Positions 3,173 to 16,449 of a DNA stretch of 64,000 nucleotides are shown here, piece after piece. The stretch is from NCBI GenBank assembly GCA_045649925.1, contig JAZRQS010000002.1:1072-65071 (forward strand). Reading direction: 5' to 3'. The notes below the pieces were generated by a model that did not search any database, was not told the origin of the DNA, and saw only the letters and a list, made by a program, of their open reading frames with translations. Positions within the stretch are counted from its first letter, which is position 1. Each line of letters begins with the position of its first letter. The DNA comes from Eubacteriales bacterium (GTDB lineage: Bacteria; Bacillota; Clostridia; Oscillospirales; CAG-272). The position numbers were made by a program, and so were the translations under genes.

Positions 3173-3192
3173 TTTGAAAGGAATATACAGAA

Positions 3193-3999
3193 ATGCAATC
3201 ACCATTCGAAATCAAAAAAGAAATATGCGAAGTAGGACACAAGCTTTATGCTAAGGGCTACGTTGCCGCAAACGACGGTAACATCTCCGTTAAGGTAAGC
3301 GACAATGAGTTTTACTGCACACCTACAGGAGTATCCAAGGGCGACCTTACACCTGACATGATCATCAAGATCGACGGCACAGGTAAGAAGCTCGAAGGAA
3401 AGCTCAACCCCTCATCCGAGATCAAGATGCACCTCCGCGTGTATCGTGAGCGTCCTGACGTAAACGCTGTTGTTCACGCTCATCCCCCTGTTGCTACTGC
3501 TTTTACAGTTGCAGGCGTAGAGCTTGACCAGTACATTCTCCCTGAGGCAGTTCTTACAATAGGAAACGTTCCTACATGTGAGTACGGCACGCCCTCTACA
3601 ATGGAGATTCCCGATTCTCTTATGCCTTATATTCAGAACCACGATGCATTCCTTCTCAAGAACCACGGTGCTCTTACAGTAGGATGCAATCTTAAGAAGG
3701 CTGCTTTCGTTATGGAAGAGGTTGAGTTCAACGCAGTTATCTGCAAGCACGCTCGTGAGCTCGGAAATGTAGAGGAAATTCCTTGCGACCAGCTTGAGAA
3801 GCTTATGGAGCTCCGCCAGAAGATGCAGATCCCCGGCAAGCACCCCGGATGCAAGAAGTGTAAGAACCTCGGCACAAGCAACTGCCGTTGCAAGCACAAC
3901 TCCGACGGCTGCACATGCGGTGGCGACAAGGTAGCAAACGCTGATCCCGCACTCGTTGCAGAGATTACAAAGAGAGTAATCGCAGCCCTCGGCAAATAA
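3193..3999 (+). CDS. fucA: Class II aldolase (fuculose/rhamnulose-1-phosphate aldolase type) with C-terminal encapsulation peptide
   Basis: ANDGNIS, TPTG, PSSEIKMH, HAHP, LKNHG Zn-aldolase motifs; C-terminal amphipathic ALVAEITKRVIAAL. Confidence 0.85.
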   Translation: MQSPFEIKKEICEVGHKLYAKGYVAANDGNISVKVSDNEFYCTPTGVSKGDLTPDMIIKIDGTGKKLEGKLNPSSEIKMHLRVYRERPDVNAVVHAHPPVATAFTVAGVELDQYILPEAVLTIGNVPTCEYGTPSTMEIPDSLMPYIQNHDAFLLKNHGALTVGCNLKKAAFVMEEVEFNAVICKHARELGNVEEIPCDQLEKLMELRQKMQIPGKHPGCKKCKNLGTSNCRCKHNSDGCTCGGDKVANADPALVAEITKRVIAALGK

Positions 4000-4018
4000 T
4001 TGAAGCGAGGGAGCAGAT

Positions 4019-5473
4019 ATGGCAATAAACTGGACAGAAGCACAGATCGATGAGATCGTGAAAAACGTTCTGGCACAGGTGAAGCCCTCCAGCACTCCCA
4101 ACAAGACGTGGGACGCGTCATCATATTGCGGAAGAAAATTCGTCGGAGTTTACGATGACATGAATGATGCCATCGAGGCGGCGAATGCAGGATATCGCGC
4201 GATACGTTCCATGAGAGTGGAAGAAAGAGAAAAGCTTATCACAAAGATAAGAGAGCTTACCCGTGCGGAAGCATCTATAATGGCTGCACTCGGTGTAGCC
4301 GAAACAAAAATGGGTAGAGTAGACCACAAGACAGCGAAGCATATGCTCGTCGCTGACAAGACTCCCGGCACAGAGGATATAGTATCTCACGTAAAGACAG
4401 GCGACTTTGGTCTGACACTTACCGAGATGGCTCCCTTTGGAGTAGTCGGAAGCATCACCCCCTCTACGAACCCCAGTGAAACAGTAATATGCAATAGTAT
4501 AGGTATGATAGCGGCAGGAAACGGCGTTGTATTCAACCCCCACCCCAATGCTATTGCGACCTCGAACTATGCAGTGGACCTCGTAAACCGCGCGTGCGTA
4601 GCGGCAGGTGGACCTAAGGTGCTCGTATCATCTGTAGTAAAGCCTACCCTCGACACAGCAAACATTATGTATAAGCACCCGTCGATACGACTCCTCGTCT
4701 GCACAGGCGGCCCCGGTGTTGTAAAGGCAGTTCTTTCATCAGGAAAGAAGGCTATCGGCGCAGGTGCGGGAAATCCCCCTGTTATCGTTGACGACACCGC
4801 TGACATAAGAAAGGCGGCAAAGGACATCATCGACGGATGCACCTTTGACAACAACCTCCCGTGTATTGCGGAAAAAGAGGTGTTTGCTTTCAGCAATATC
4901 GCAGACGAGCTTATCTCAGGAATGCTTGACGCAGGCGCATACAAGATTTCGAGAGAGCAGGCGGACAGACTCGCAGACATTGTTCTCAATGATGTGAAAA
5001 ATCCTAAGACAGGAATAGTCAAGAAGGTAGTAAACAGAGATTGTGTCGGTCGCGACGCCTCCGTTCTTCTTGAAAAGATAGGCATAAAGGCAGGTCCTTC
5101 GGTCAGATGTATAATCTGCGAAGTTCCCTTCGAGCATCTCTTCGTGCAGGAGGAGCTCATGATGCCTATACTTCCTATAGTCAGAGTAAACAACATTGAT
5201 CAGGCAATAGAGCTTGCCGTAAAGGCAGAGCACGGAAACCGTCACACAGCGCATATGCATTCCAAGAATATCGACAACCTCACACGTTTTGCCCGTGCGG
5301 TAGAAACCACGATATTCGTAAAGAATGCTCCTTCCTATGCAGGCATCGGCTTCGGTGGAGAGGGTCACGCCACCTTCACAATAGCAGGACCTACGGGAGA
5401 GGGAATAACCTCGGCAAAGAGCTTTACAAGACTTCGCCGTTGCGTTATGGCTGACAACTTCCGTATTATATAA
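4019..5473 (+). CDS. pduP: CoA-acylating aldehyde dehydrogenase (PduP/EutE) with N-terminal encapsulation peptide
   Basis: PSTNP, TGGPGVV, GAGAGNPP, FDNNLPCIAEK, EELMMP, HGNRHTA, TIAGPTGEG. Confidence 0.93.
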   Translation: MAINWTEAQIDEIVKNVLAQVKPSSTPNKTWDASSYCGRKFVGVYDDMNDAIEAANAGYRAIRSMRVEEREKLITKIRELTRAEASIMAALGVAETKMGRVDHKTAKHMLVADKTPGTEDIVSHVKTGDFGLTLTEMAPFGVVGSITPSTNPSETVICNSIGMIAAGNGVVFNPHPNAIATSNYAVDLVNRACVAAGGPKVLVSSVVKPTLDTANIMYKHPSIRLLVCTGGPGVVKAVLSSGKKAIGAGAGNPPVIVDDTADIRKAAKDIIDGCTFDNNLPCIAEKEVFAFSNIADELISGMLDAGAYKISREQADRLADIVLNDVKNPKTGIVKKVVNRDCVGRDASVLLEKIGIKAGPSVRCIICEVPFEHLFVQEELMMPILPIVRVNNIDQAIELAVKAEHGNRHTAHMHSKNIDNLTRFARAVETTIFVKNAPSYAGIGFGGEGHATFTIAGPTGEGITSAKSFTRLRRCVMADNFRII

Positions 5474-5488
5474 GAAAGGAAAAAAGCA

Positions 5489-6685
5489 ATGGATTTCAAC
5501 GCTTCACAGCTTGAGAGCATAGTACGCCGCGTGCTTGGTGAAATGGGAGCCTCCTCTGCAGCAGCAGGCGAGATTCCGAAAACCGGTAAGGTCGCAATGC
5601 TCACAGCACAGAAAACTATAGAAGTAAAGGAATTTGCCATTCCCGCCCTTGAGGATGATGACATTCTCGTAAAGGTAGAGGGATGCGGCGTGTGCGGAAC
5701 TGACGTACACGAGTGGAAGGCTGACCCCTTCGGGCTTATCCCCGTTACTCTCGGTCACGAGGGAACTGGTGAGATAATCGCACTTGGCAAAAACGTAAAA
5801 TGCGATACGGCAGGCAGACCCATCAAGGTCGGCGACAAGATCGTTACCTCCGTTATCAGCTGCGGCGAGTGTAACATTTGCCGCCTCCAGCCCGCACACA
5901 CAAACCTCTGCGACAAGCAGGGTGTGTTCGGACTTATCGCTCACAGCGATGCACAGCCCTTCACAGGTTGGTTTGCTACCCACCTTCTCATCAGAGCAAA
6001 GGGCGCTACATATTTCGTAGTAAACGACCTCAACCTCAATGAAAGAATGTTGCTTGAGCTTGCGACTGTTGCAGTTCACGCATACGAGAGAGGTGCAAAG
6101 ACAGGTCTTCTCAACTTCAACAGCAAGGTGCTCATTCAGGGACTTGGCCCCGTTGGTCTTATGATGATTTCCGTGCTCCGCGCGGCAGGTATCAATCACA
6201 TCATCGCCATCGACGGCACACCCAAGCGTCTTGAAATGGCAAAGAAGCTCGGTGCTAAAACACTTATCAACTTCCGTGAGTACGACACTCTCGATAAGAG
6301 AATAGAGGCTGTAAAGGCTGTAACGTACGGAAGCGGCGCTGATTTCGTGTTCCAGTGCACAGGCGCTCCTGCGGCAGCGTCCGACGCATACAGCTATGTA
6401 CGTCGTGGCGGCGGCTTCTGCGAGATGGGCTTCTTCGTAAACAACGGAGAGTTCTCCGTAAATCCTCACTTCGCATTCTGTAACAAGGAGATCAACCTCG
6501 TTGGCTCTTGGGACTACAGCGCAGAGGATTATCCTACTACAATGGCGTTCTTGCGTCAGGCGAGAGAAATGAAGATTCCGATAGAGGAGCTCATCACTCA
6601 CTCTTATCCTCTTGAAAAGCTCAACGAGGCTATGGAAATGAACGTTTCTCAGCAGGGCATCAAGATCTGCTATATAGCAGAATAA
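5489..6685 (+). CDS. Zn-dependent (MDR) alcohol dehydrogenase with N-terminal encapsulation peptide; probable lactaldehyde/propionaldehyde reductase
   Basis: CGVCGTD, GHEGTG, structural Zn CGECNIC...C, GLGPVG; N-terminal QLESIVRRVLGEM. Confidence 0.88.
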   Translation: MDFNASQLESIVRRVLGEMGASSAAAGEIPKTGKVAMLTAQKTIEVKEFAIPALEDDDILVKVEGCGVCGTDVHEWKADPFGLIPVTLGHEGTGEIIALGKNVKCDTAGRPIKVGDKIVTSVISCGECNICRLQPAHTNLCDKQGVFGLIAHSDAQPFTGWFATHLLIRAKGATYFVVNDLNLNERMLLELATVAVHAYERGAKTGLLNFNSKVLIQGLGPVGLMMISVLRAAGINHIIAIDGTPKRLEMAKKLGAKTLINFREYDTLDKRIEAVKAVTYGSGADFVFQCTGAPAAASDAYSYVRRGGGFCEMGFFVNNGEFSVNPHFAFCNKEINLVGSWDYSAEDYPTTMAFLRQAREMKIPIEELITHSYPLEKLNEAMEMNVSQQGIKICYIAE

Positions 6686-6703
6686 GAAAAGGAGTAAGCT
6701 CGT

Positions 6704-7033
6704 ATGGCACTCGGCATGATTGAGGTCTACGGCTTCACCACTTCAATAATCGTCGCCGACAAGGTGGCAAAGACCTCCGACGTAAAGGTGGTCGCTATCG
6801 ATAAAAACAAGCCTGCAAACGGCGATTCCGCCGAGGTGCCGCTTGTTATGATAGTAAAGTTTGAGGGTGATACCGCAGCAGTAGAGTCTGCACTTGAAGC
6901 AGGCAAGGCCGAAGCAGAGAAAAGAGGACTCTACATAACCTCCAAGATAATTTCCAGACAGTCTCCCGAAATAGAGTGGTTTGCCCATCTCGGAGCGACA
7001 GGAAAAGATAAACTTCGTAACACAAATAAATAA
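6704..7033 (+). CDS. Divergent BMC-H shell protein
   Basis: ALGMIEVYG...ADKVAKTSDV...EGDTAAV BMC fold motifs with a loop insertion. Confidence 0.85.
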   Translation: MALGMIEVYGFTTSIIVADKVAKTSDVKVVAIDKNKPANGDSAEVPLVMIVKFEGDTAAVESALEAGKAEAEKRGLYITSKIISRQSPEIEWFAHLGATGKDKLRNTNK

Positions 7034-7071
7034 AATAAAAAAATAAATACAATTTTTAAAGGAGAAAAATC

Positions 7072-7347
7072 ATGAAAGAAGCATTGGGAATGGTTGAAAC
7101 CAGAGGACTTGTTGCAGCAATCGAGGCAGCAGATGCAATGGTAAAGGCAGCAAACGTAGAGCTCGTAGGAAGCGAAAAGATCGGTAGCGGTCTCGTAAGC
7201 GTTATGGTAAGAGGCGACGTTGGAGCTGTTAAGGCAGCAGTTGAGGCAGGCGGCGCAGCAGCTTGCTCACTCGGTGAGGTTATCGCAACTCACGTTATTC
7301 CTCGTCCTCACGCAGACGTTGAAAAGATTCTTCCTGCGCTCAAATAA
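7072..7347 (+). CDS. pduA: BMC-H shell protein, PduA/PduJ/EutM type
   Basis: [32 protein letters not shown] pore, RGDVGAV, HVIPRPH. Confidence 0.95.
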
Positions 7348-7354
7348 TTGAACT

Positions 7355-7630
7355 ATGGAAAAAGCAATAGCGTTACTCGAGGTACAGTCTATGGTTGCCG
7401 CAATTGCAGGACTTGATGCAATGGTAAAGGCAGCTGACGTAGAGCTTATTCATGTCGAGAAGCGCTTGGGTGGACGACTCGTCACAGTAGTCGTTGAAGG
7501 CAAGGTCTCCTCCGTTGAGGCTGCTGCAAGAGCAGGTGAAGCAGAGGCGGCAAAGGTCGGAAAGGTGAAGCTCTGTGAGGTCATCGCTCGACCGCATCCC
7601 GACGTAATGAAGTTCTTAAAAACAGAATAA
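7355..7630 (+). CDS. BMC-H shell protein with basic pore loop
   Basis: LDAMVKAADV, EKRLGGRLV, VIARPH. Confidence 0.9.
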   Translation: MEKAIALLEVQSMVAAIAGLDAMVKAADVELIHVEKRLGGRLVTVVVEGKVSSVEAAARAGEAEAAKVGKVKLCEVIARPHPDVMKFLKTE

Positions 7631-7694
7631 AATCTAAAAAACCAAAAAAAACAAAAATAAAAACAAAAAACTAATTTTAATGGAGGAAATTAAA

Positions 7695-7967
7695 ATGGAA
7701 GCATTGGGAATGGTTGAAACCAGAGGTCTTGTAGCTGCAATCGAGGCAGCAGATGCAATGGTAAAGGCAGCAAACGTAATTCTTGTCGGAAGCGAAAAGA
7801 TCGGTAGCGGTCTCGTAAGCGTTATGGTAAGAGGCGACGTTGGAGCTGTTAAGGCAGCAGTTGAAGCAGGCGGCGCAGCAGCTTCTTCTCTTGGCGAGGT
7901 TATTGCTACTCACGTTATTCCTCGTCCTCACGCAGATGTTGAAAAGCTTCTTCCTTCTATCAAATAA
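7695..7967 (+). CDS. pduJ: BMC-H shell protein, PduA/PduJ type (near-identical paralog of 7072..7347)
   Basis: Same motifs as 7072..7347; start moved to ATG 7695 after GGAGG. Confidence 0.93.
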
Positions 7968-8008
7968 TTAAGAAGAGAAGTAATTTTTCCACAAAAGCGT
8001 AAAGCGTT

Positions 8009-8050
8009 ACGGTATTGAGGCTTTTGCCTCAATACCGTGCCCTACGGGGC
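8009..8050 (+). other. Intra-operon tandem stem-loops without U-tract
   Basis: ACGGTATTGAGGC-TTTT-GCCTCAATACCGT (13 bp) immediately followed by GCCC-TACG-GGGC. Confidence 0.7.
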
Positions 8051-8173
8051 AAAATCCCACATTCGTTATCAAGCTGGTTATTCAGAAAACAAAAATTCGC
8101 AAAGCCCGTAAAGATGAGTACAATTCCGTGAAAACGGTTAAAGATATATAAATTGATAAAAAGGAGCAGTAAA

Positions 8174-8827
8174 ATGGAACTCAACAGCTCACAGATCGCC
8201 GAAATGGTGAAAAAAGTATTGAATGAAATGTCGTCAGGCACACCTTCCTCTGACGGAGATATCCCCGTAGGAGTTTCAAACAGACATATTCATCTCTCAA
8301 GAGAGCATCTTGACATTCTCTTTGGTCAGGGATATGAGCTCACACCCATAAAGGAGCTTTCCCAGCCTGGACAGTATGCATGCAAGGAGCTCTTGACAAT
8401 AGTCGGACCCTCGCTTCGCCCCATAGAAAACGTGCGAGTGCTTGGACCTGTCCGTCGTGAGTCGCAGGTAGAAATATCAATGACTGACTCCTTTACACTC
8501 AAGGTAAAGCCCCCCGTTCGTGAGTCGGGAAAGATAGAAGGCTCTGCCCCCTTGACCATCATCGGTCCTCGTGGCGTAGTGACCTTGAAGGAAGGCTGTA
8601 TTATAGCAAACAGACACATACATATGCATACCTCTGACGGACAGCGCTTTGGTGTCCGCGACGGAGATTACGTAACAGTTGATGTAAACGGTAAAAAGCG
8701 CACGCGCTGGTACGACGTTCAGGTCAGAGTATCGGACGCATTCGCACTTGAGATGCACGTAGACACAGACGATGCAAATGCAGCAGGAATAGGAAACGGC
8801 TGCAAGGTAAAGCTTGTTAAAGAATAA
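8174..8827 (+). CDS. pduL: Phosphate propanoyltransferase PduL with N-terminal encapsulation peptide
   Basis: GVSNRHIHLS, LSQPGQY, RVLGP, ANRHIHM, MHVDTDDANA; N-terminal QIAEMVKKVLNEM; start at ATG 8174 after AAGGAG. Confidence 0.95.
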   Translation: MELNSSQIAEMVKKVLNEMSSGTPSSDGDIPVGVSNRHIHLSREHLDILFGQGYELTPIKELSQPGQYACKELLTIVGPSLRPIENVRVLGPVRRESQVEISMTDSFTLKVKPPVRESGKIEGSAPLTIIGPRGVVTLKEGCIIANRHIHMHTSDGQRFGVRDGDYVTVDVNGKKRTRWYDVQVRVSDAFALEMHVDTDDANAAGIGNGCKVKLVKE

Positions 8828-8844
8828 AACAGAGGTATATAGAA

Positions 8845-9093
8845 ATGTTAAAAGGTATAGTTATCGACAATATCGTATCTACAAGAAAGCAGGATTCCCT
8901 CGTAGGAAGCAAGTTCCTTGAGGTAAGAATAATTGAAAACGGCGCTCCCACCGAAAAGTATCTTATAGCAGTAGATAGCGTCGGCGCAGGTATAGGCGAA
9001 ACAGTCCTCATCACAGAGGGCAGTCCCGCCCGCCTCGCACTTCACAACCAGCAGTCCCCCGTTGACGCTGTTATAGTAGGTATCGTAGACTGA
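8845..9093 (+). CDS. eutN: BMC-P vertex protein (EutN/CcmL/PduN)
   Basis: VSTRK, IAVDSVGAGIGETVL, VDAVIVGIVD. Confidence 0.95.
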   Translation: MLKGIVIDNIVSTRKQDSLVGSKFLEVRIIENGAPTEKYLIAVDSVGAGIGETVLITEGSPARLALHNQQSPVDAVIVGIVD

Positions 9094-9108
9094 TTTTGGA
9101 GAAAATAA

Positions 9109-10449
9109 ATGCTCACAGAACTTAAGAAAAAAATACAAAACGGCGGTGTCATAGGCGCAGGCGGAGCAGGCTTCCCCTCCTATGCGAAGATGGCGCCCGG
9201 CGCTGATACGCTTATCGTAAACGGTGCAGAGTGCGAGCCGCTTTTGTATACCGACTACGTTCTTTTGCGTGAGTATATGCAGAGACTTATCGCCGCAATT
9301 ACGATAGTTGCGCGTGAGCTTGGTGTAAAGCAGTCCTTCCTCGCTATGAAAAATCATACGGCGAAAAAGCTGTCACTCGAGGACGGACAGAGACTCGCTG
9401 AGAATATTTACATACGCTCCTTGCCCGATGTTTACCCCATGGGCGACGAGATAATTCTCATATACGAAACGACAAAAAGAATAGTCCCTCCGGGAAAGCT
9501 TCCTATGCACTGCGGAGTTATCGTTTACAACGTCGAAACAGTGCTGAATATAACTAAATGTATCGAGAGCGAAACTCCCGTTGTTGAAAAATGGCTCACA
9601 GTCGGCGGCGATATAGAAAATCCCCGTGTAGTCCGAGTTTCCGTAGGTATAAGAATAAGAGATTTGTTCTCTGTGCTTGGCGTTACAGTAGACGACGACC
9701 ACGTAGTCATTGATGGCGGACCCTCTATGGGTAAGATAGTAAACCACAACACAGGCGTCGTGCTTAAAAACACAAAGGCGTTGCTCGTGCTCCCAAAGAG
9801 CTGTGTCGCAGTTTCCTCAAAAATGGTTTCTCTCGACGCCCAGCTCAGACGAGGCTCGTCTGCCTGTTGTCAGTGTACACGATGCACAGATATGTGCCCT
9901 CGTGCACTCATAGGTTATCCTCTCGCACCTCACAAGCTCGTGCGCGTCGCCTCTGCAGGTGATGCCATAGACCCGTCAGTATATCTCAGTGCGACAATGT
10001 GCTCAAGCTGTGGAATATGCGAAACGGCTGCTTGCTGTCAGGGACTTTCCCCGAAGGATATGATAGCGGCATTAAAGACTGAGCTTGCAAAAAAGAAAAT
10101 GAAATACATCGTAGACGATCCTACCAAGCCCCTTGAGCAGAGAGATTACAGACTTGTTCCAAGCGAGCGCTGGAAGGCGTTGCTCGGGGTAGAGAAGTTT
10201 GACCGTGAGGCTATTCTTTACAACGTAAAGATAATCCCCGACTTTGTAGAAATTCCTATGAAGGGACACATCGGTGCGCCCTCTATCCCCTGTGTAAAGC
10301 CGGGCGACTTCGTCAAATACGGCGACAAGATAGCAGATGCAGCCGACGGACTTTCAGTCCCTCAGCACGCATCAATCGACGGTAGAATTTTCGTCGCAGA
10401 CAACGACAAGATAATCATCGAAAAACAAAACACAAATTTGAGTAAATAA
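9109..10449 (+). CDS. pduS: PduS/RnfC-like flavin Fe-S oxidoreductase
   Basis: GAGGAGFP, NGAECEP, YPMGDE, GGPSMG, CCQCTRCTDMCP and CSSCGIC, C-terminal HIGAP...HASIDG. Confidence 0.9.
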   Translation: MLTELKKKIQNGGVIGAGGAGFPSYAKMAPGADTLIVNGAECEPLLYTDYVLLREYMQRLIAAITIVARELGVKQSFLAMKNHTAKKLSLEDGQRLAENIYIRSLPDVYPMGDEIILIYETTKRIVPPGKLPMHCGVIVYNVETVLNITKCIESETPVVEKWLTVGGDIENPRVVRVSVGIRIRDLFSVLGVTVDDDHVVIDGGPSMGKIVNHNTGVVLKNTKALLVLPKSCVAVSSKMVSLDAQLRRGSSACCQCTRCTDMCPRALIGYPLAPHKLVRVASAGDAIDPSVYLSATMCSSCGICETAACCQGLSPKDMIAALKTELAKKKMKYIVDDPTKPLEQRDYRLVPSERWKALLGVEKFDREAILYNVKIIPDFVEIPMKGHIGAPSIPCVKPGDFVKYGDKIADAADGLSVPQHASIDGRIFVADNDKIIIEKQNTNLSK

Positions 10450-10460
10450 GGATAGAATTT

Positions 10461-11006
10461 ATGTATCAGGCTGTTGGTGTAATAGAAATAAAAAGTATAG
10501 CGAAGGGCATAGAGGCTTGTGACGCGGCGCTCAAGAGCGCAGGCATCAGCCTTGTTTCCGCCCACCCCGCTTGCCCCGGAAAATACGAGATGATACTCAC
10601 AGGCAGTATCTCCGACGTTACCGCCGCCGTTGAGCACGTAAAGGGCAGATACGGAGAAGCACTCGTCGATGAGAGCATAATGGGTAGAATAGACGAGTCC
10701 GTCATAGCCGCTCTCTTTGGTGCTCAGGTCGCAAAGCGCGAGGGCAGTCTTGGTATCATAGAAACGTTTTCGGCAGCCTCCGCAATAAAGGCGTCTGATA
10801 TAGCAGTCAAGACTTCTCGTGTGCAGATATATGACCTCCGCGTCTCTCGTGGAATGGGTGGAAAGGGAATAGTCCTCCTCACAGGAGAGGTAGGAGACGT
10901 CACTGCGGCAGTTGAAGCAGGTGCAGCCCATGCCAAAGCGCAGGGACTTCTCTCACAGATGTCCGTCATAGCCGCTCCCCACGCTGATTTGTGGGAGCAA
11001 ATGTAA
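10461..11006 (+). CDS. pduT: BMC-T shell protein PduT
   Basis: Tandem BMC domains; ACPGKY (Fe-S-binding Cys position); GMGGKG. Confidence 0.9.
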   Translation: MYQAVGVIEIKSIAKGIEACDAALKSAGISLVSAHPACPGKYEMILTGSISDVTAAVEHVKGRYGEALVDESIMGRIDESVIAALFGAQVAKREGSLGIIETFSAASAIKASDIAVKTSRVQIYDLRVSRGMGGKGIVLLTGEVGDVTAAVEAGAAHAKAQGLLSQMSVIAAPHADLWEQM

Positions 11007-11024
11007 GCTTTTAGGAGTAGTTTT

Positions 11025-13553
11025 ATGGAAAACATAAAGTTCGTGATAGAAAAAAGCGAAAGAATAGAAAAGCTCAAGGCTGACCTTTATGCAAAAATGC
11101 CTGAAATAGAGGCAGACAGAGGCGTGCTTGTTACCGAGAGCTATCAGGCGACAGAGGGTATGCCTATCATAAAGCGCCGTAGCGCTGCTTTCGCTCATAT
11201 ACTTAAAAATATTCCGATAGTAATAAGAGATAACGAGCTTATCGTAGGCTCAAACTCTATAGCTCCTCGTGGCTGTCAGGTATTCCCTGAGTACTCGTAT
11301 GAGTGGCTTGAGGCAGAGTTTGACACAGTAGAGCACAGAAGTGCCGACCCCTTCTACATATCGGAAAATACCAAGGAGCGCTTGCGCAAGGTTTACCCCT
11401 ACTGGAAGGGTAAGACCACGAGCGATCTCGCAAAGGCGAATATGGCACCTGAGGCCTATGCCGCATTTACAGTACACAACATATTCACCGTAGGTAACTA
11501 TTTCTACAACGGCGTAGGTCACGTCTGCGTAGACTACAAAAAAGTAGTAAACTACGGATATTCCAAGATAATTCAAGAGGCAAAGGACGCTCTTGCAAAG
11601 CTCGACTGCGGAATGGGAGATTATATCCCGCGCAGTAACTTCCTCTATGCAGTTATAGAAAGCTGTGAGGCAGTTATCGGCTATGCTCATCGCTATGCCG
11701 ACCTCGCTCGCAAGATGGCATCTGAGGAAAAGGACGCTACTCGCAGAGCAGAGCTCTTGCAGATAGCAGAAAACTGCTCACACGTTCCCGAGCATGGCGC
11801 TCGTAACTTCTACGAGGCATGCCAGTCATTCTGGTTTGTACAGCAGCTCTTGCAGATGGAGTCCAGCGGACATTCCATCTCCCCCGGTCGCTTTGACCGT
11901 TATATGTACCCCTTCTACAAGAAGGATAAGGACGAAGGAAAGATTACAGTCGAGTTCGCACAGGAATTGCTTGACTGTATATGGATAAAGCTCAATGACT
12001 TGAACAAGGTGCGTGACGCCGCATCTGCCGAAGGATTTGCAGGCTACGGACTTTTCCAGAACCTCATTGTCGGCGGTCAGGACGAATACGGAAGAGATAC
12101 TACAAACGACCTTTCCTTTATGTGCCTTGAGGCTTCCATGCATGTCAGACTTCCTCAGCCCTCCATCACCATGCGTGTATGGAACGGCACACCTCAGGAT
12201 CTGCTCATCAAGTCGGTTTCCCTCACTCGAGAGGGACTTGGCATTCCCGCATACTACAACGACGAGGTCATCATTCCGTCAATGATGTCGAGAGGCGTAT
12301 CCCTTGAGGATGCAAGAGATTACTGCATCATCGGATGCGTAGAGCCTCAGAAGGCTGCAAAGACAGATGGCTGGCACGATGCGGCATTCTTCAATATGTG
12401 TCGTCCTATGGAGCTCGTTTTCTCAAACGGCTATGACAAGGGCGTGCAGATAGGACTTGCTACAGGCGATGTAACCAAGTTCAAGACCTTTGAGGAGTTC
12501 TTTGATGCGTACAAGGCTCAGCAGGCGTATATGGTAAAGCTTCTTGCAAACGCCGACAACGCCGTCGACTCTGCTCACGCGACACTTTGTCCCTTGCCCT
12601 TCCAGTCCTGTATGGTCGATGACTGTATAGGTAGAGGAAAGAGTATGCAGGAGGGTGGAGCAATATACAATTTCACAGGTCCTCAGGGATTTGGAATTGC
12701 AAATATGACAGACGCTCTCATGGCGATAAAGGAGCTTGTATTTGAGAAAAAGCTCGTCACTATGCAGGAATATAAGGACGCACTTGAGGCGAACTTCGGT
12801 CAGGGCATCAAGGGCGCAAAGGCAGAGGAAATTACAGTGCAGATAGTCACCGCACTCTCAAAGAGTGGAGTTAGCGTGACTGATGCGCAGATAAAGGACA
12901 TATATCGCGAGGTCACCGAAAATGGTGGCGTTAGTGCAGAAAAGAAAAAGAGATACGAGGAAATCCTTTCCCTCATCGGCACAGTTGCCAAGTATGGCAA
13001 CGACATCGAGGAGGCTGACGAAATGGCGAGAGAGGTCGCTTACTCCTACACCAAGCCTGTAGAGAAGTATACCAACTATCGTGGAGGTCAGTTCCAGGCA
13101 GGTCTTTACCCTGTATCTGCAAATGTTCCGCTCGGCGCACAGACAGGTGCGACCCCCGACGGCAGATTGGCATACACCCCCATCGCTGACGGCGTAGGCC
13201 CTGCCGCAAACCGCGATACAAATGGTCCTACAGCTGCGGCAAACTCCGTTTCCAAGCTCGATCACCTCATCGCATCAAACGGAACGCTCTTCAACCAGAA
13301 ATTCCACCCCTCCGCACTCAGCGGAATGGCAGGACTTACAAAGTTCGCATCATACATCAGAGCATTCTTTGACCGCAAGGGTATGCATATGCAGTTCAAT
13401 GTAATCAGCAGAGAGACCCTTCTTGCAGCTCAGAGAGAGCCTGAAAAGTACAAGACGCTCGTTGTCCGTGTTGCAGGCTACAGTGCGCTCTTTACGACAC
13501 TTTCAAAGTCACTTCAGGACGATATTATAAATCGTACTGAGCTTGGCTTCTGA
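11025..13553 (+). CDS. Glycyl radical enzyme, B12-independent 1,2-propanediol dehydratase
   Basis: Cys loop IIGCVEP, Gly loop VRVAGYS, GVGH, SSGHSIS, GWHDAA. GYGLFQN and GLYPVSAN carry the Phe/Val seen in propanediol rather than glycerol dehydratases (recalled, not aligned). Confidence 0.88.
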   Translation: MENIKFVIEKSERIEKLKADLYAKMPEIEADRGVLVTESYQATEGMPIIKRRSAAFAHILKNIPIVIRDNELIVGSNSIAPRGCQVFPEYSYEWLEAEFDTVEHRSADPFYISENTKERLRKVYPYWKGKTTSDLAKANMAPEAYAAFTVHNIFTVGNYFYNGVGHVCVDYKKVVNYGYSKIIQEAKDALAKLDCGMGDYIPRSNFLYAVIESCEAVIGYAHRYADLARKMASEEKDATRRAELLQIAENCSHVPEHGARNFYEACQSFWFVQQLLQMESSGHSISPGRFDRYMYPFYKKDKDEGKITVEFAQELLDCIWIKLNDLNKVRDAASAEGFAGYGLFQNLIVGGQDEYGRDTTNDLSFMCLEASMHVRLPQPSITMRVWNGTPQDLLIKSVSLTREGLGIPAYYNDEVIIPSMMSRGVSLEDARDYCIIGCVEPQKAAKTDGWHDAAFFNMCRPMELVFSNGYDKGVQIGLATGDVTKFKTFEEFFDAYKAQQAYMVKLLANADNAVDSAHATLCPLPFQSCMVDDCIGRGKSMQEGGAIYNFTGPQGFGIANMTDALMAIKELVFEKKLVTMQEYKDALEANFGQGIKGAKAEEITVQIVTALSKSGVSVTDAQIKDIYREVTENGGVSAEKKKRYEEILSLIGTVAKYGNDIEEADEMAREVAYSYTKPVEKYTNYRGGQFQAGLYPVSANVPLGAQTGATPDGRLAYTPIADGVGPAANRDTNGPTAAANSVSKLDHLIASNGTLFNQKFHPSALSGMAGLTKFASYIRAFFDRKGMHMQFNVISRETLLAAQREPEKYKTLVVRVAGYSALFTTLSKSLQDDIINRTELGF

Positions 13554-13608
13554 TAAGTTAGATAAACTCTTACAAATTACGATAAAATCTTATGAAAGGA
13601 AAACCGCT

Positions 13609-14394
13609 ATGAGTTATTACGATACTACTGGTAGAATATTCGATATTCAGCGGTTTTCCGTTCATGACGGTCCGGGAATAAGAACGATAGTTTTCTTAAA
13701 GGGCTGTCGTCTGCGTTGTCGCTGGTGCTGTAATCCCGAGTCACAGGAATGGGATATACAGAAAATGATAATAAACGGTGAGCAAAAAATTGTCGGTGAG
13801 GATACCACAGTCGAGCGGGTAATTGCCGAGGTGGTAAAGGACGAGGCGTTTTACAGACGCTCAGGCGGAGGACTTACGCTTTCAGGTGGTGAGGCAATGT
13901 GCCAGCCCGAATTCGCCATAGACCTCTGCAGAGCAGCACACGATTACGGAATAAGCACCGCCATAGAAACTACGGCGGCAGTTCCGTCTGATGTGGTCGC
14001 GCGAGTCATTCCTCACATAGACTACGTGCTTTTGGATATAAAGCATATGAATTCCGAAAAGCACAAGGCATTTACAGGCAAGAGCAACGAGCAGATACTT
14101 TCAAACGCCCGCTACATCGCTGAAAATGCAAACGACCTCACCATTCGAGTGCCCGTAATTCCGAGCTTCAACGATACTGCAGAGGAGATTTCGGCGATAG
14201 CTAAATTTGCAAACTCGCTCCCCTCTGTCACAAAGCTTCATCTCTTGCCTTATCATCGTCTTGGACAAAACAAGTACGATGGACTTGGCAGAAAATACGA
14301 CTTTGAGAACGTAGCGACAATTCCCGATGAAAAAATGAACTACTTGCTTGACATAGCGCGAGAGAGTGGACTCGTATGTCAAATAGGAGGATAA
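13609..14394 (+). CDS. Glycyl-radical activating enzyme (radical SAM, short form)
   Basis: HDGPGIRT, CRLRCRWCCNPES (CX3CX2C), SGGE; start at ATG 13609 after AAGGA. Confidence 0.93.
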   Translation: MSYYDTTGRIFDIQRFSVHDGPGIRTIVFLKGCRLRCRWCCNPESQEWDIQKMIINGEQKIVGEDTTVERVIAEVVKDEAFYRRSGGGLTLSGGEAMCQPEFAIDLCRAAHDYGISTAIETTAAVPSDVVARVIPHIDYVLLDIKHMNSEKHKAFTGKSNEQILSNARYIAENANDLTIRVPVIPSFNDTAEEISAIAKFANSLPSVTKLHLLPYHRLGQNKYDGLGRKYDFENVATIPDEKMNYLLDIARESGLVCQIGG

Positions 14395-14395
14395 A

Positions 14396-14761
14396 ATGGA
14401 TTTTTCAATGCAGGATAAAATGCGTATAATTCAGGAGCTGGTCCCCGGTAAGCAGATAACGCTTGCCCATGTTATTGCCAACCCTGATAAAACGCTTTAC
14501 TATAAGCTTGGTCTTGACCCTCAGGTCGAGCGTGAAAGAAGCGCTATCGGTATCGTTACCGTCAGCCCTGCCGAAACGGCTGTTATCGGTGCAGATATCG
14601 CAATGAAGGCGTCAGGCGCCGTGGTCGAATTTGTAGACCGCTTTACAGGCACGGTAATTATGACAGGCTCGGTCTCCGAGGTTGAGACCTCAGTCCTTGC
14701 AATTACCGAGTACTGTAAAAACAAGCTCGGCTATACAGTTTGCGACGTTACCAAAACATGA
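14396..14761 (+). CDS. pduU: Permuted BMC shell protein PduU/EutS
   Basis: RIIQELVPGKQITLAHVIANP, AIGI, FVDRFTG. Confidence 0.93.
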   Translation: MDFSMQDKMRIIQELVPGKQITLAHVIANPDKTLYYKLGLDPQVERERSAIGIVTVSPAETAVIGADIAMKASGAVVEFVDRFTGTVIMTGSVSEVETSVLAITEYCKNKLGYTVCDVTKT

Positions 14762-15186
14762 GAAAGCTGATACTTATCGGGCGTGTTGCGGCAGGGAAAA
14801 CCACTCTGACGCAGGCTCTGCTCGGCGAGGAATTGCACTACTTCAAGACGCAGTACGTGCAATACGGGGATATGATAATAGATACTCCGGGCGAATATAC
14901 CGAGCTGCGAAACCTCAGTGGAGCTCTCGCCTTGTACGCCTATGAGGCTGATGTTGTCGGACTTGTGCTCTCGGCGGACGAGCCGTATTCCATCTTCAGT
15001 CCAAACATCACTTGCCTTGTCAATCGCGACGTAGTCGGCATAATTACAGGCGTGGATAAGGAAAGGGCAAACCCTGACAGAGTGGAGCGCTGGCTCCGTC
15101 TTTCAGGCTGTAAAAAAGTATTCCGTGTCAGCTCGTATACGGGTGAGGGAATATCCGACATAATAGATTACCTAAACAGAGAATAA
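14758..15186 (+). CDS. pduV: PduV/EutP small P-loop protein
   Basis: LIGRVAAGKTTLTQAL, YFKTQ, IDTPGEY, VSSYTGEG; ATGA overlap with pduU. Confidence 0.92.
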   Translation: MRKLILIGRVAAGKTTLTQALLGEELHYFKTQYVQYGDMIIDTPGEYTELRNLSGALALYAYEADVVGLVLSADEPYSIFSPNITCLVNRDVVGIITGVDKERANPDRVERWLRLSGCKKVFRVSSYTGEGISDIIDYLNRE

Positions 15187-15206
15187 CATAACTCAAGGAG
15201 TAGCTT

Positions 15207-15998
15207 ATGAGCAAAACAAAGGTCATCTCATTTGCAAATAATAAGGGCGGTAGCGGAAAATCTACCACCTGCTCAAACGTAGCGTACATAATGGCGTCAA
15301 TGGGCAAAAAGGTGTTGCTTGTCGATGGCGATATGCAGATGAATCTTACACTTTCGTTCTTTTCAGAGGACGAGGCGCTGGAGTATGCAAAAAGTGGAAA
15401 AAACCTCTATGCAGCAATAAAGGATGCACGCGACGTTTCTGATTTTATAGTTCCCACCGCATACGAAAACCTCGACATAATCCCCTCGTCTACGCTTATG
15501 AGCTCTATAGAGTTCGACCTCTTTACCAAGTGGCAGAGAGAGTTCATTTTGAAAAAGGGCTTGTCCGCAGTTATCGAGGCAGAGACTTATGACTATGTGC
15601 TTATAGACGCTCCCCCTACGCTCGGTGGCTGGGTTATGAATATCCTCTGTGCGACCGACTATCTCGTCATTCCCGTCGAGGCAAGTCCGTGGGGACTGTT
15701 CGGTCTTGCAAATATGTTTGAGTTCTACTCACAGGTAAAGACAATGTCGCCCACACTTGATTTGCTCGGCATCGTCATTACAAAGGCAGACGAGAGAAAG
15801 AACTACTTCAAGGGTGCAGTTCAGAGTCTGCGAGAGCTTGACGGAGTGCGCCTCTTTGATAGCATAATAAGAGTAGATAGCGCAGTCGAATGGGCGCAGG
15901 ATAATAGCAAGCCCGTCGCCGCGTATAAGAAATCCTCGCGTTCATCACTTGAATATACAGAACTTGCAAAGGAGATAATGAATTATGTCAATAGGTAA
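15207..15998 (+). CDS. ParA/MinD-family ATPase (McdA-like candidate)
   Basis: Deviant Walker A NNKGGSGKST, VDGDMQMN, IDAPP; 20 nt after pduV with its own AAGGAG RBS. Confidence 0.9.
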   Translation: MSKTKVISFANNKGGSGKSTTCSNVAYIMASMGKKVLLVDGDMQMNLTLSFFSEDEALEYAKSGKNLYAAIKDARDVSDFIVPTAYENLDIIPSSTLMSSIEFDLFTKWQREFILKKGLSAVIEAETYDYVLIDAPPTLGGWVMNILCATDYLVIPVEASPWGLFGLANMFEFYSQVKTMSPTLDLLGIVITKADERKNYFKGAVQSLRELDGVRLFDSIIRVDSAVEWAQDNSKPVAAYKKSSRSSLEYTELAKEIMNYVNR

Positions 15999-16329
15999 GA
16001 ATAGCCTCTCAAGAGTATCTGCGGCAGTAAACGCAAGTCCCGCAGAGGAAGTTGTTAAGGAGTTGGTTGCTCCTGTCGCTGAAAAGAAGAGCGAAGCAAA
16101 GAAATCCCCTGCGAAAGCTCCTGCTAAAGCGCCCGCAAAGGCTCCCGCACAGAAAAAAGCGACCACAACAAAGTCAAGCGCAAAGGCTCCTGCAAAGGCT
16201 CCCGCAAAGGCTCCCGCACAGCAGGAAAAGCCTGCAGCTCCCAAAAAGCCTGCACAACCGAAAAAGGTCGCTGCCGCAAAGAAGGGCTATGTTTCCTTCG
16301 GTGACGAGCTTCCTGTACATCTTCTTTGA
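15985..16329 (+). CDS. Small Lys/Ala/Pro-rich disordered protein, putative ParA partner
   Basis: Start overlaps the ATPase stop, AAGGAG RBS; (KAPA)n repeats; C-terminal GYVSFGDELPVHLL. Confidence 0.8.
   Translation: MSIGKNSLSRVSAAVNASPAEEVVKELVAPVAEKKSEAKKSPAKAPAKAPAKAPAQKKATTTKSSAKAPAKAPAKAPAQQEKPAAPKKPAQPKKVAAAKKGYVSFGDELPVHLL
16111..16221 (+). repeat. 12-nt coding tandem repeat (AKAP), in two 42-nt blocks
   Basis: gcgaaagctcctgctaaagcgcccgcaaaggctcccgcacag (16111-16152) vs gcaaaggctcctgcaaaggctcccgcaaaggctcccgcacag (16180-16221). Confidence 0.85.
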
Positions 16330-16341
16330 TTAGATTTAACT

Positions 16342-16371
16342 AAAAGAGCAGATAAAAATCTGCTCTTTTTT
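16342..16371 (+). terminator. Intrinsic terminator closing the BMC operon
   Basis: AAAAGAGCAGAT-AAAA-ATCTGCTCTTTT then T-run. Confidence 0.85.
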
Positions 16372-16449
16372 GTTATTTTCCCTCTTGAAAAAATCGTCGA
16401 AATGTAGTATAATTTATGCAATATTTTAAAAAATGCGGAGGATGTAAAA

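What the first reader, a model, noticed from the sequence alone, without database searches (positions are those of the whole stretch)
15207..16371. ParA-type ATPase plus disordered KAPA-repeat partner inside a glycyl-radical microcompartment operon: candidate McdAB-like metabolosome positioning system
Seen: the ATPase gene starts 20 nt after pduV with no terminator between them and has an intact deviant Walker A (KGGSGKST). Its stop overlaps a 114-aa ORF, and the operon terminator follows that ORF. No parB, parS palindrome, minC/minE or plasmid genes are in the window. Established: carboxysomes are spaced on the nucleoid by McdA (ParA-like) and McdB, a small, largely disordered adaptor with a basic N-terminus that stimulates the ATPase and a C-terminal motif that binds the cargo. 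Inference: this pair has the same layout (N-terminal K/R peptide MSIGKNSLSRV, disordered middle, hydrophobic C-terminal motif), but the partner is not recognisably McdB and has no terminal Trp. It may be a distinct family that segregates a catabolic BMC in an anaerobic Firmicute. McdAB-like pairs have been predicted near some non-carboxysome BMC loci, so the novelty would lie in this partner family and host.
Basis: partly seen in the sequence, partly recalled or inferred. Interest (0 to 1): 0.88.

Follow-up and report, generated by a model that had tools for sequence, protein, structure and literature searches.

The report
ParA-adaptor pair closing a microcompartment operon
A ParA-type ATPase and a small disordered partner protein end a gut bacterium's microcompartment operon and look like a system that spaces these protein organelles in the cell, a kind already predicted in print but never tested.

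Summary
A 263-aa ParA/MinD-type ATPase (15207-15998) with an intact deviant Walker A starts 20 nt after pduV. A 114-aa ORF (15985-16329) overlaps its stop by 14 nt. A strong hairpin terminator (16342-16369) follows.

The pair is conserved. All 80 closest loci carry the same small ORF. Its middle is variable, basic and disordered. Its ends are fixed: M-P/S-I-G-K-N-S/A-I-K-R-V at the start and G-D/E-E/D-L/M-P-x-[Y/H/W/F]-L-L at the end.

In 201 genomes of the host's family, the ATPase ortholog and partner occur in 25, all among the 40 genomes with shell genes. None of the 161 without shell genes has them.

The best reading is a McdAB-like positioning system for a catabolic microcompartment (confidence about 0.7, no experiment).

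The novelty claim fails. MacCready et al. (2020 preprint, 2021) and Basalla et al. (2024) already report putative McdB-like proteins beside GRM and PDU operons that carry a Tyr within the last four residues and end in LL, which is this family's signature. This copy has His at that position, as 28 of 150 family representatives do.

It is a new member of a predicted, untested kind. Interest is moderate.

The parts
1973..16329 (+). GRM5-type microcompartment operon. Gene order: acetate kinase, class II aldolase, AldDH, AlcDH, four BMC-H-type shell genes, PduL, EutN, PduS, PduT-like BMC-T, glycyl-radical enzyme 11025-13553, activase, PduU, PduV, ParA-like ATPase, partner. An RpiR regulator lies at 1074-1910.
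   Evidence: ORFs and translations. Pfam for PduU and PduV. All 7 BMC-domain hits of the genome lie in this locus. The same gene order occurs in related loci.
14758..15186 (+). pduV/eutP-type GTPase gene directly upstream of the ATPase gene
   Evidence: Pfam PduV-EutP, E 2e-47. PduV lies directly upstream of the ATPase gene in 72 of 80 related loci.
15187..15206 (+). 20-nt spacer with AAGGAG ribosome-binding site (15196-15201)
   Evidence: Sequence. No terminator-like site on the + strand here.
15207..15998 (+). ParA/MinD-family ATPase, 263 aa (McdA-like)
   Evidence: AAA_31 8e-51, CbiA 5e-19. No NCBIfam equivalog cut-off reached. Nearest solved structures are chromosomal ParA/Soj (8RAY 4.9e-29, 6IUB 2.5e-25); the Cyanothece McdA-like 6NON scores 3e-16. 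It is 33% identical to the genome's own Soj.
15243..15266 (+). Deviant Walker A, KGGSGKST (residues 13-20)
   Evidence: Sequence. K13, G14, G15, G17, K18 and T20 are invariant in 77 aligned sequences.
15985..16329 (+). Partner ORF, 114 aa (McdB-like adaptor). Overlaps the ATPase stop by 14 nt. Net charge +15, pI 10.2.
   Evidence: No Pfam or NCBIfam family. Present in 80 of 80 related loci. 649 cluster representatives at E<=1e-3. AF2 mean pLDDT 63, pTM 0.17. Charge and pI.
15985..16017 (+). N-terminal motif MSIGKNSLSRV, the putative ATPase-contacting peptide
   Evidence: M1, G4, K5 and R10 are invariant in 79 sequences. G, K and R are invariant in 150 of 150 representatives. AF2 predicts a helix at 7-16 and pLDDT 76 for residues 1-10.
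16099..16221 (+). KAPA repeat blocks within the disordered basic linker
   Evidence: Direct repeat family D1. The linker is not conserved in sequence or length across the family, which spans 73-223 aa.
16291..16326 (+). C-terminal motif VSFGDELPVHLL, the putative shell-docking peptide. His sits at the family's aromatic position, third from the end.
   Evidence: P110 and L113 invariant, L114 at least 90%. The P-x-[YHWF]-[LIM]-[LIM] end is present in 149 of 150 representatives: Y 106, H 28, W 8, F 7. AF2 pLDDT is 82 and 77 for the last two blocks.
16342..16369 (+). Intrinsic terminator closing the operon
   Evidence: 12-bp perfect stem, 4-nt loop, T-run.

Best explanation
The two genes encode a dedicated positioning and partitioning system for the fucose/rhamnose-type glycyl-radical microcompartment made by the same operon. 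It is built like McdA/McdB of carboxysomes.

Proposed mechanism:
1. The ATP-bound ParA-like dimer binds the nucleoid non-specifically.
2. The partner docks on the outside of the shell through its C-terminal G-D/E-E/D-L/M-P-x-[Y/H/W/F]-L-L motif.
3. The partner's flexible basic linker presents the N-terminal M-P/S-I-G-K-N-S/A-I-K-R-V peptide to the ATPase dimer.
4. Many such peptides on one organelle stimulate ATP hydrolysis and release the ATPase from DNA.
5. This creates a local depletion zone, so organelles move up the ATPase gradient, stay apart and are shared between daughter cells (Brownian ratchet).

Shown here: gene structure, conservation of the two short motifs, a disordered basic middle, and strict co-occurrence with shell genes.

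Inferred by analogy: DNA binding, ATPase stimulation, shell docking and the ratchet.
For: 1. Layout. The partner overlaps the ATPase stop by 14 nt in 68 and by 26 nt in 8 of 78 complete loci, which suggests translational coupling.

2. The partner is present in 80 of 80 loci that hold a 65-87% identical ATPase.

3. Context of those 80 loci:
- In 72 the pair follows pduV at the 3' end of a syntenic shell/enzyme locus.
- In 1 it follows the BMC-T gene directly.
- In 5 there is too little upstream sequence to judge.
- In 2 (L070, L084) there are no BMC genes in the flanks, but both genomes hold shell loci elsewhere.

4. The pair tracks the shell, not the signature enzyme. 15 of 66 assessable loci lack the glycyl-radical enzyme yet keep the pair.

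5. Host-family sample of 201 genomes:
- Shell genes in 40.
- ATPase ortholog (E<=1e-60) in 25.
- Partner profile hit in 24. The 25th was found by reading G475.
- All 25 are among the 40 shell-positive genomes; 0 of 161 shell-negative genomes has either.
- In 24 of the 25 the hit lies on the same contig as listed shell hits.

6. The genome already has a separate Soj-Spo0J pair on contig C53. This ATPase is therefore a second, specialised one.

7. The partner has the published McdB traits: a conserved charged N-terminus, low hydrophobicity (median GRAVY -0.57), biased composition, net positive charge in 79 of 79, and no predicted fold.

8. Its ring-bearing residue is third from the end, the same place as the Trp of H. 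neapolitanus McdB (passage in PMC11321042).

9. In H. neapolitanus the first 20 residues of McdB, and Lys7 in particular, are needed for McdA binding (abstract and passages of PMC12139897). Here K5 and R10 are invariant.

10. The C-terminal motif differs from the encapsulation-peptide-like helices at the N-termini of AldDH, AlcDH and PduL in this operon (read). That fits docking on the outside rather than packaging inside.
Against: - There is no experiment on any member of this family.
- Sequence homology to carboxysome McdA or McdB was not shown. By sequence the ATPase is nearer to chromosomal ParA/Soj structures than to the Cyanothece McdA-like structure.
- This copy has His, not an aromatic residue in the strict sense, at the key C-terminal position.
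- 15 of the 40 shell-positive genomes in the family lack the pair. In the 5 looked at, pduV lies upstream of the shell genes, a different locus layout. The pair is therefore dispensable for BMCs in general.
- A promoter-like match inside pduV (15017-15044) means separate transcription cannot be excluded.
- Kin are not independent, so the co-occurrence counts overstate the evidence: the ATPase ortholog is in 11 of 97 genera and shell genes in 20 of 97.
Confidence: 0.7

Rival explanations
1. The pair serves the microcompartment in some way other than a nucleoid-gradient ratchet. The polycationic linker (KAPA repeats, pI about 10) might bind DNA or form a condensate and tether organelles directly, with the ATPase only regulating release. 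Alternatively the partner might act as a small disordered scaffold during shell assembly.
For: - All 79 partners are net positive, with median pI 9.7.
- The linker is proline/alanine/lysine rich, like DNA-binding tails (recalled resemblance, not tested).
- Linker length varies from 73 to 223 aa through repeat expansion.
- The BMC association fits this reading equally well.
Against: - Linker sequence is not conserved; only the two termini are.
- The N-terminal motif and the coupling to a ParA-type ATPase match partner-stimulated ATPase cycling.
Confidence: 0.2
2. It is a DNA-partition module (a type Ib-like ParA plus a small centromere-binding protein), or a remnant of a mobile element, that merely sits next to the operon.
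For: - The ATPase is a classical ParA with the signature lysine.
- It scores best against chromosomal ParA/Soj structures and partially matches plasmid partition models.
- In 2 of 80 loci the pair is away from shell genes.
Against: - No NCBIfam partition equivalog reaches its cut-off.
- The partner has no predicted DNA-binding fold.
- There is no parS or iteron-like repeat near the pair.
- There is no ParB on this contig.
- The pair sits at a fixed position inside a chromosomal operon in 73 of the 75 assessable loci.
- It was not found in any of 161 shell-negative genomes of the family.
Confidence: 0.05
3. The small ORF is not a real gene, only a repeat-rich open frame after the ATPase gene.
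For: It is of low complexity. Two other frames over the same DNA are also open: 16052-16333 on + and 15945-16244 on -.
Against: - The start and end motifs are conserved in 80 of 80 loci and in 149 of 150 representatives, while the middle drifts.
- The overlap with the ATPase stop is conserved.
Confidence: 0.02

Closest known systems
Putative McdA/McdB-like pairs beside non-carboxysome BMC operons (MacCready et al. 2021, Mol Microbiol, section 2.9; preprint 10.1101/2020.08.11.246918; Basalla et al. 2024, Mol Biol Cell, Fig. 4)
   Same: A ParA-type gene followed by a small disordered ORF in or next to GRM/PDU-type operons. The partner has Tyr within the last four residues and ends in LL (preprint passage). 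That matches this family's P-x-Y-L-L end.
   Different: The published text gives four examples and a logo; I could not see the figures or supplements. This copy has His instead of Tyr. The N-terminal motif, the size of the family, the link to one locus layout and the Y/H/W/F spectrum are not in the text I could read.
Alpha-carboxysome McdAB of Halothiobacillus neapolitanus
   Same: The ATPase keeps the signature lysine. The partner is small, almost wholly disordered and encoded right after the ATPase gene inside the BMC operon. Its N-terminal basic peptide is needed for ATPase contact (K7). Its key ring residue is third from the C-terminus.
   Different: Alpha-McdB ends V/I-W-P-D with an invariant Trp; here the end is P-x-Y/H-L-L. 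No sequence homology was shown. The cargo is a catabolic metabolosome in anaerobic gut Clostridia.
Chromosomal ParA/Soj with ParB/Spo0J (for example M. xanthus ParA, PDB 8RAY; H. pylori Soj, 6IUB)
   Same: These are the best sequence matches among solved structures. The Walker motifs are shared. The partner contacts the ATPase through a short N-terminal motif of aliphatic and basic residues (passages of 10.1101/2025.03.14.642875).
   Different: There is no ParB_N domain partner and no parS. The genome has its own Soj-Spo0J elsewhere, 33% identical.
PduV/EutP GTPase, proposed to position Pdu microcompartments
   Same: It is encoded in the same operon, directly upstream, and has been linked in the literature to BMC localisation (passages in PMC8262871).
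   Different: It is a different fold and nucleotide. It is also present in pair-less BMC loci.

Membership tests
ParA/MinD (deviant Walker A) ATPases | [quoted passage not shown] | tested here: met
   KGGSGKST at residues 13-20. K13, G14, G15, G17, K18, T20, D40, D42, D134, P136 and P137 are invariant in 77 sequences. AAA_31 and CbiA score above their cut-offs.
Chromosomal ParABS (Soj/Spo0J) | Adjacent ParB with a ParB_N domain, and parS sites | tested here: not met
   ParB_N hits lie only on contigs C53 and C7. No parS-like site occurs in the window with up to 3 mismatches. The parS consensus I searched with was recalled.
Curated partition ATPase equivalogs (NCBIfam ParA_partition, RepA, SopA, PrgP) | Score above the curated cut-off | tested here: not met
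   Best is 80.2 bits against a cut-off of 180. All others are also far below their cut-offs.
McdA (BMC-positioning ParA) | ParA-type ATPase encoded in or next to a BMC operon and followed by a small partner gene | tested here: met
   The ortholog occurs only in shell-positive genomes of the family sample: 25 of 40 against 0 of 161.
McdA (BMC-positioning ParA) | Sequence relationship to carboxysome McdA beyond general ParA similarity | tested here: inconclusive
   The only McdA-like sequences on hand (PDB 6NON, 6NOO, 6NOP) match at 3e-16, weaker than Soj-type ParAs at about 1e-25 to 5e-29. MacCready 2020 itself doubts that the Cyanothece protein is a true McdA. No alpha-McdA sequence was available.
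McdA (BMC-positioning ParA) | ATP-dependent non-specific DNA binding and partner-stimulated release | not testable with these tools
   Only indirect evidence: R197 is invariant in all 77 aligned sequences, including the genome's own Soj. Its equivalence to the DNA-binding Arg of B. subtilis Soj is recalled, not checked.
McdB (BMC adaptor) | Small ORF immediately after the ATPase gene with a conserved charged N-terminus | tested here: met
   14-nt overlap with the ATPase stop. M1, G4, K5 and R10 are invariant.
McdB (BMC adaptor) | Aromatic residue within the last 4-5 residues (Trp in carboxysome types, Tyr or Phe in GRM/PDU types) | tested here: inconclusive
   Met for the family: Y, W or F in 70 of 78 loci and in 121 of 150 representatives, third from the end. 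This copy has His there, as do 8 of 78 loci and 28 of 150 representatives.
McdB (BMC adaptor) | Intrinsic disorder, biased composition, low hydrophobicity | tested here: met
   AF2 pTM 0.17, with only a helix at 7-16. The window copy's middle is 90% disorder-promoting residues; GRAVY is -0.54.
McdB (BMC adaptor) | Binds shell proteins and the ATPase | not testable with these tools
   One complex prediction gave no verdict (see Tried and rejected).
Type Ib plasmid partition partner (ParG-like ribbon-helix-helix protein) | Folded dimeric DNA-binding domain after a flexible N-terminal tail | tested here: not met
   AF2 with a 79-sequence alignment finds no folded domain. No Pfam match.

The most novel reading that the evidence does not exclude
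This Clostridial pair is an independently evolved third class of BMC adaptor, not homologous to alpha- or beta-McdB. It would have converged on the same three-part logic: an N-terminal Lys/Arg peptide for the ATPase, a disordered basic linker, and a ring residue third from the C-terminus for the shell. The natural Y/H/W/F series at that position, with His in about one fifth of the family, would be a built-in tuning of shell affinity. That would make the family a natural experiment on how ParA adaptors recognise icosahedral protein cargo.
Probability: 0.35. Interest if true: 0.6.

Novelty: new member of a known kind. Interest (0 to 1): 0.4.

Why it matters
How catabolic microcompartments are spaced and inherited is still open. 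A 2025 review asks for directed studies (PMC13052382, passage read). In Salmonella, neither McdAB nor the cell's own ParA or MinD moved Pdu organelles (PMC12866334, passages read).

This family gives that question a concrete handle:
- It is compact: two genes, a partner of about 100 aa and two short motifs.
- It is abundant: at least 649 clusters at 50% identity.
- It is tightly tied to one operon layout in gut Clostridia.
- It offers a ready-made allelic series (Y/H/W/F) at the presumed shell-docking residue.

It also matters for engineering. A portable positioning module might stop the polar aggregation seen with heterologously expressed shells.

The idea itself is not new, so the value is as a well-delimited test case, not a discovery of kind.

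Tried and rejected
**Complex prediction.** I submitted the ATPase dimer, 2 ATP and partner residues 1-35, with my own alignments. The score was 0.17 against a mark of 0.32, so there is no verdict. It counts neither for nor against binding. A BMC-H hexamer plus peptide would also exceed the chain limit.

**RNA evidence.** One metatranscriptome run (X1, contigs only, 0.05 of the sampled words) held contigs of relatives about 90-94% identical. They cover much of 6000-16275, including 15160-15935 over the ATPase gene. The library may contain DNA, contigs cannot show transcripts, and no contig bridges the pduV stop by 31 letters. Co-transcription is therefore neither shown nor refuted.

**Receptor search by covariation.** I tested every alignment column of 14 locus proteins against His versus non-His at the partner's third-from-last residue. 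The best columns were in PduL, the ATPase and PduS (p about 1e-5 to 5e-5, roughly the multiple-testing limit), not in shell proteins. There is no usable signal.

**Word-based homolog search with the single partner.** It found only 2 proteins, because of low complexity. The profile search was needed.

**ESM Atlas.** Only unnamed 'hypothetical protein' clusters were returned. Recognition was below the reliable range.

**Class-wide sample.** 4 of 399 genomes hit. One (G290, E 2e-4, an internal stretch of a 596-aa frame) is probably a low-complexity false hit. The family is therefore rare outside its lineage in an even sample.

**Literature.**
- One search was too broad and returned nothing relevant.
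- One search listed 12 of the 18 papers that use 'McdB-like' or 'McdAB-like'. By their titles and abstract openings, 9 of the 12 are about carboxysomes or CO2-concentrating mechanisms and 3 have a wider scope: two reviews, one on carboxysome positioning that also covers other BMCs (PMC8262871) and one on organelle positioning in general (PMC13052382), and the Salmonella study above (PMC12866334).
- Neither those listing entries nor the passages I read of the three wider papers report an experiment on a native metabolosome pair.
- Figures (Fig. 8f of PMC8359340, Fig. 4 of PMC11321042) and supplements were not available. They may list members of this very family.

**Not done.** I built no ParA/Soj/McdA/MinD tree, because no alpha- or beta-McdA sequences were available to me in usable form.
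Full report
**1. What is there**

The window's first 16.3 kb hold one long + strand operon of the GRM5 (fucose/rhamnose, glycyl-radical) microcompartment type. The gene order is:
- an RpiR regulator;
- acetate kinase;
- a class II aldolase;
- an acylating aldehyde dehydrogenase;
- an alcohol dehydrogenase;
- four BMC-H-type shell genes;
- PduL;
- EutN;
- PduS;
- a PduT-like BMC-T;
- an 842-aa glycyl-radical enzyme (11025-13553) and its activase;
- PduU;
- PduV.

All seven BMC-domain hits of the 1.55-Mb, 53-contig genome lie here.

The flagged pair closes the operon.
- Twenty nucleotides after the pduV stop, behind an AAGGAG site, starts a 263-aa ParA/MinD-family ATPase (15207-15998). It matches AAA_31 at 8e-51 and CbiA at 5e-19 and has KGGSGKST at residues 13-20.
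- Its stop lies inside a 114-aa ORF (15985-16329), a 14-nt overlap.
- A 12-bp perfect hairpin with a T-run follows at 16342-16369. A strong promoter-like site for the next gene lies at 16385-16413.
- There is no parS-like site in the window.
- The genome's ParB_N genes are on other contigs.
- A canonical Soj-Spo0J pair sits on contig C53. Its Soj is 33% identical to the ATPase here.

**2. The small ORF is a real, conserved gene with two fixed ends**

A scan of one genome per prokaryote species found 505 relatives of the ATPase. The best 80 (65-87% identity) were kept as loci.
- In all 80 an ORF overlaps the ATPase stop. 78 are complete and 2 are cut by a contig end. The overlap is 14 nt in 68 and 26 nt in 8.
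- The alignment of 79 partners has only 18% mean column identity. Even so, M1, G4, K5, R10, P110 and L113 are invariant.
- Length runs from 73 to 223 aa. The longest (L019) has about nine copies of a 12-residue repeat.
- All 79 are net positive, with median pI 9.7 and median GRAVY -0.57.
- AlphaFold2 with this alignment gives no fold: pTM 0.17 and mean pLDDT 63. It predicts only a helix at residues 7-16. Confidence is higher at both ends (76, 82 and 77) than in the middle (51-66).

A profile search of 1.84 billion cluster representatives found 649 proteins at E<=1e-3 and 224 at E<=1e-10.
- The best 150 are all 80-176 aa long.
- 149 of the 150 have both motifs.
- The start consensus is M-P-I-G-K-N-S/A-I/L-K-R-V.
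- The end consensus is V/I-x-L/I/V-G-D/E/G-E/D-L/M-P-x-[Y 106, H 28, W 8, F 7]-L-L.

The partner matches no Pfam or NCBIfam model.

**3. The pair belongs to the microcompartment**

Context of the 80 loci:
- In 72 the ATPase gene follows pduV at the 3' end of a syntenic shell/enzyme locus.
- In one (L007) it follows the BMC-T gene directly.
- Five have too little upstream sequence to judge.
- Two Lachnospiraceae loci (L070, L084) have no BMC genes in the flanks. L084 lies between a LysR regulator and an aspartokinase. Both genomes carry shell loci on other contigs.

Fifteen of 66 assessable loci lack the glycyl-radical enzyme but keep the pair. The pair therefore tracks the shell module rather than the signature enzyme.

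In an even sample of 201 genomes of the host's family:
- 40 have BMC-domain genes.
- 25 have an ATPase ortholog at E<=1e-60. The weakest of these is 1.6e-103, far from the Soj level of about 1e-35.
- 24 have a partner profile hit. The 25th (G475) has the ORF when read directly.
- All 25 are among the 40 shell-positive genomes. None of the 161 shell-negative genomes has either gene.
- In 24 of the 25 the pair lies on the same contig as listed shell hits.
- By genus, the ATPase ortholog is in 11 of 97 and shell genes in 20 of 97, so the count of independent events is much smaller than the genome counts.

Five shell-positive genomes that lack the pair have pduV upstream of the shell genes, a different layout.

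In a class-wide sample only 3 credible hits occurred in 399 genomes, one of them the window's own genome. The two others also have shell genes.

**4. How it most likely works**

The anatomy matches the partner-driven ParA cycle worked out for carboxysomes.
[quoted passage not shown] Lys7 is critical, and McdB releases McdA from non-specific DNA (abstract and passages of PMC12139897).
- The invariant Trp of that McdB is the third residue from the C-terminus and is needed for carboxysome association. Tyr can partly replace it (passages and section 10 of PMC11321042).
- In the family studied here, the invariant K5 and R10 lie in a short aliphatic-basic motif. That is the kind of motif through which ParB contacts ParA (passages of 10.1101/2025.03.14.642875).
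- The ring residue is again third from the end and is preceded by acidic residues.

I therefore infer the following chain: an ATP-bound ATPase dimer on the nucleoid; the partner anchored to the shell by its C-terminal motif; many N-terminal peptides per organelle stimulating hydrolysis; a depletion zone; and ratchet-like spacing and partitioning.

The operon's own encapsulation-peptide-like helices, at the N-termini of AldDH, AlcDH and PduL, look unlike the partner's C-terminal motif. That fits external docking.

None of these biochemical steps was or could be tested here. I put this reading at about 0.7.

The main rival (about 0.2) keeps the BMC link but changes the mechanism. The uniformly basic linker might bind DNA or form condensates, or the partner might act in assembly.

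A plain DNA-partition module is unlikely (about 0.05). It has no folded DNA-binding domain, no centromere-like repeats, a fixed operon position, and was found only in shell-positive genomes.

**5. Comparison with what is known, and novelty**

[quoted passage not shown] That test is met.
- It is not a ParABS Soj: there is no ParB and no parS. It reaches no curated partition equivalog.
- Its nearest solved relatives are chromosomal ParAs (8RAY 4.9e-29, 6IUB 2.5e-25). The Cyanothece McdA-like structure scores only 3e-16. Orthology with carboxysome McdA is not shown.
- The partner meets the published descriptive criteria for McdB: position after the ATPase gene, a charged N-terminus, disorder, biased composition and low hydrophobicity.
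- The family meets the C-terminal aromatic criterion. This copy has His there.

The central idea is already in print.
- Axen et al. 2014 listed ParA among ancillary BMC-locus Pfams (passages).
- MacCready et al. 2021, section 2.9, reports McdA/McdB-like genes in or near four non-carboxysome BMC operon types, with Tyr in the last four residues.
- Its preprint adds that these proteins end in LL.
- Basalla et al. 2024 names GRM and PDU and shows a logo with Y/F.
I could not see the figures or supplements to confirm identity.

In the text I could search, I did not find the following:
- the N-terminal consensus;
- the family's size;
- its restriction to one locus layout in gut Clostridia;
- its independence from the glycyl-radical enzyme;
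- the frequent His variant;
- any experiment on a native metabolosome pair.

**6. Verdict**

This is a real and well-conserved feature. Its function is very probably tied to the microcompartment, and it is most likely a McdAB-like positioning pair. It is a new member, the His variant, of a kind that specialists have already predicted but never tested.

Interest is 0.4. A specialist would not be surprised. Still, the family is a clean, abundant test case for the open question of how metabolosomes are positioned.

Noticed in passing
L007, L017, L019, L021, L031, L038, L041, L050, L055, L057, L064, L067, L073, L074, L080: 15 of 66 assessable related loci lack the glycyl-radical enzyme and its activase. 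They keep the shell genes and the ATPase-partner pair, and all but L007 keep PduU-PduV. Where the locus reaches far enough upstream, aldolase and/or AldDH genes are there too. This looks like a GRE-less, aldolase-type variant of the same operon.
   Followed up: partly
window 3193-3999: The class II aldolase has a C-terminal extension with a Cys-rich stretch (CKKCKNLGTSNCRCKHNSDGCTCGG) followed by an amphipathic helix-like tail. AldDH, AlcDH and PduL each start with a similar Q-I-x-x-I-V-K/R-x-V-L-type peptide, probably encapsulation peptides (read).
   Followed up: no
window 10461-11006: The 181-aa BMC-T protein has a Cys in an A-C-P-G-K context near residue 38. It resembles the Fe-S-binding PduT (recalled) and sits next to a PduS homolog.
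   Followed up: no
L019:10779-11447: The partner ortholog is 223 aa long. It has about nine tandem copies of a 12-residue K-E-E-K-P-A-V-K-A-A-P-A unit, so linker length evolves by repeat expansion while both ends stay fixed.
   Followed up: partly
L084 (pair at 9992-11070) and L070: In two Lachnospiraceae MAGs the pair (about 71-72% identical ATPase) is not in a BMC locus. In L084 it lies between a LysR regulator and an aspartokinase. Shell loci are on other contigs, as with 'satellite' mcdAB in some cyanobacteria.
   Followed up: partly
window 15017-15044: A promoter-like match (TTGTCA, 16-nt spacer, CATAAT; 10 of 12) lies inside pduV about 160 nt upstream of the ATPase gene. It is a consensus match only.
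   Followed up: no
own genome, contig C7:785-1938: Two ParB_N-domain genes lie in tandem, away from the Soj-Spo0J pair on C53.
   Followed up: no
window 16450-17550: The next gene, with its own promoter-like site, encodes a 366-aa polytopic membrane protein. It was not characterised.
   Followed up: no
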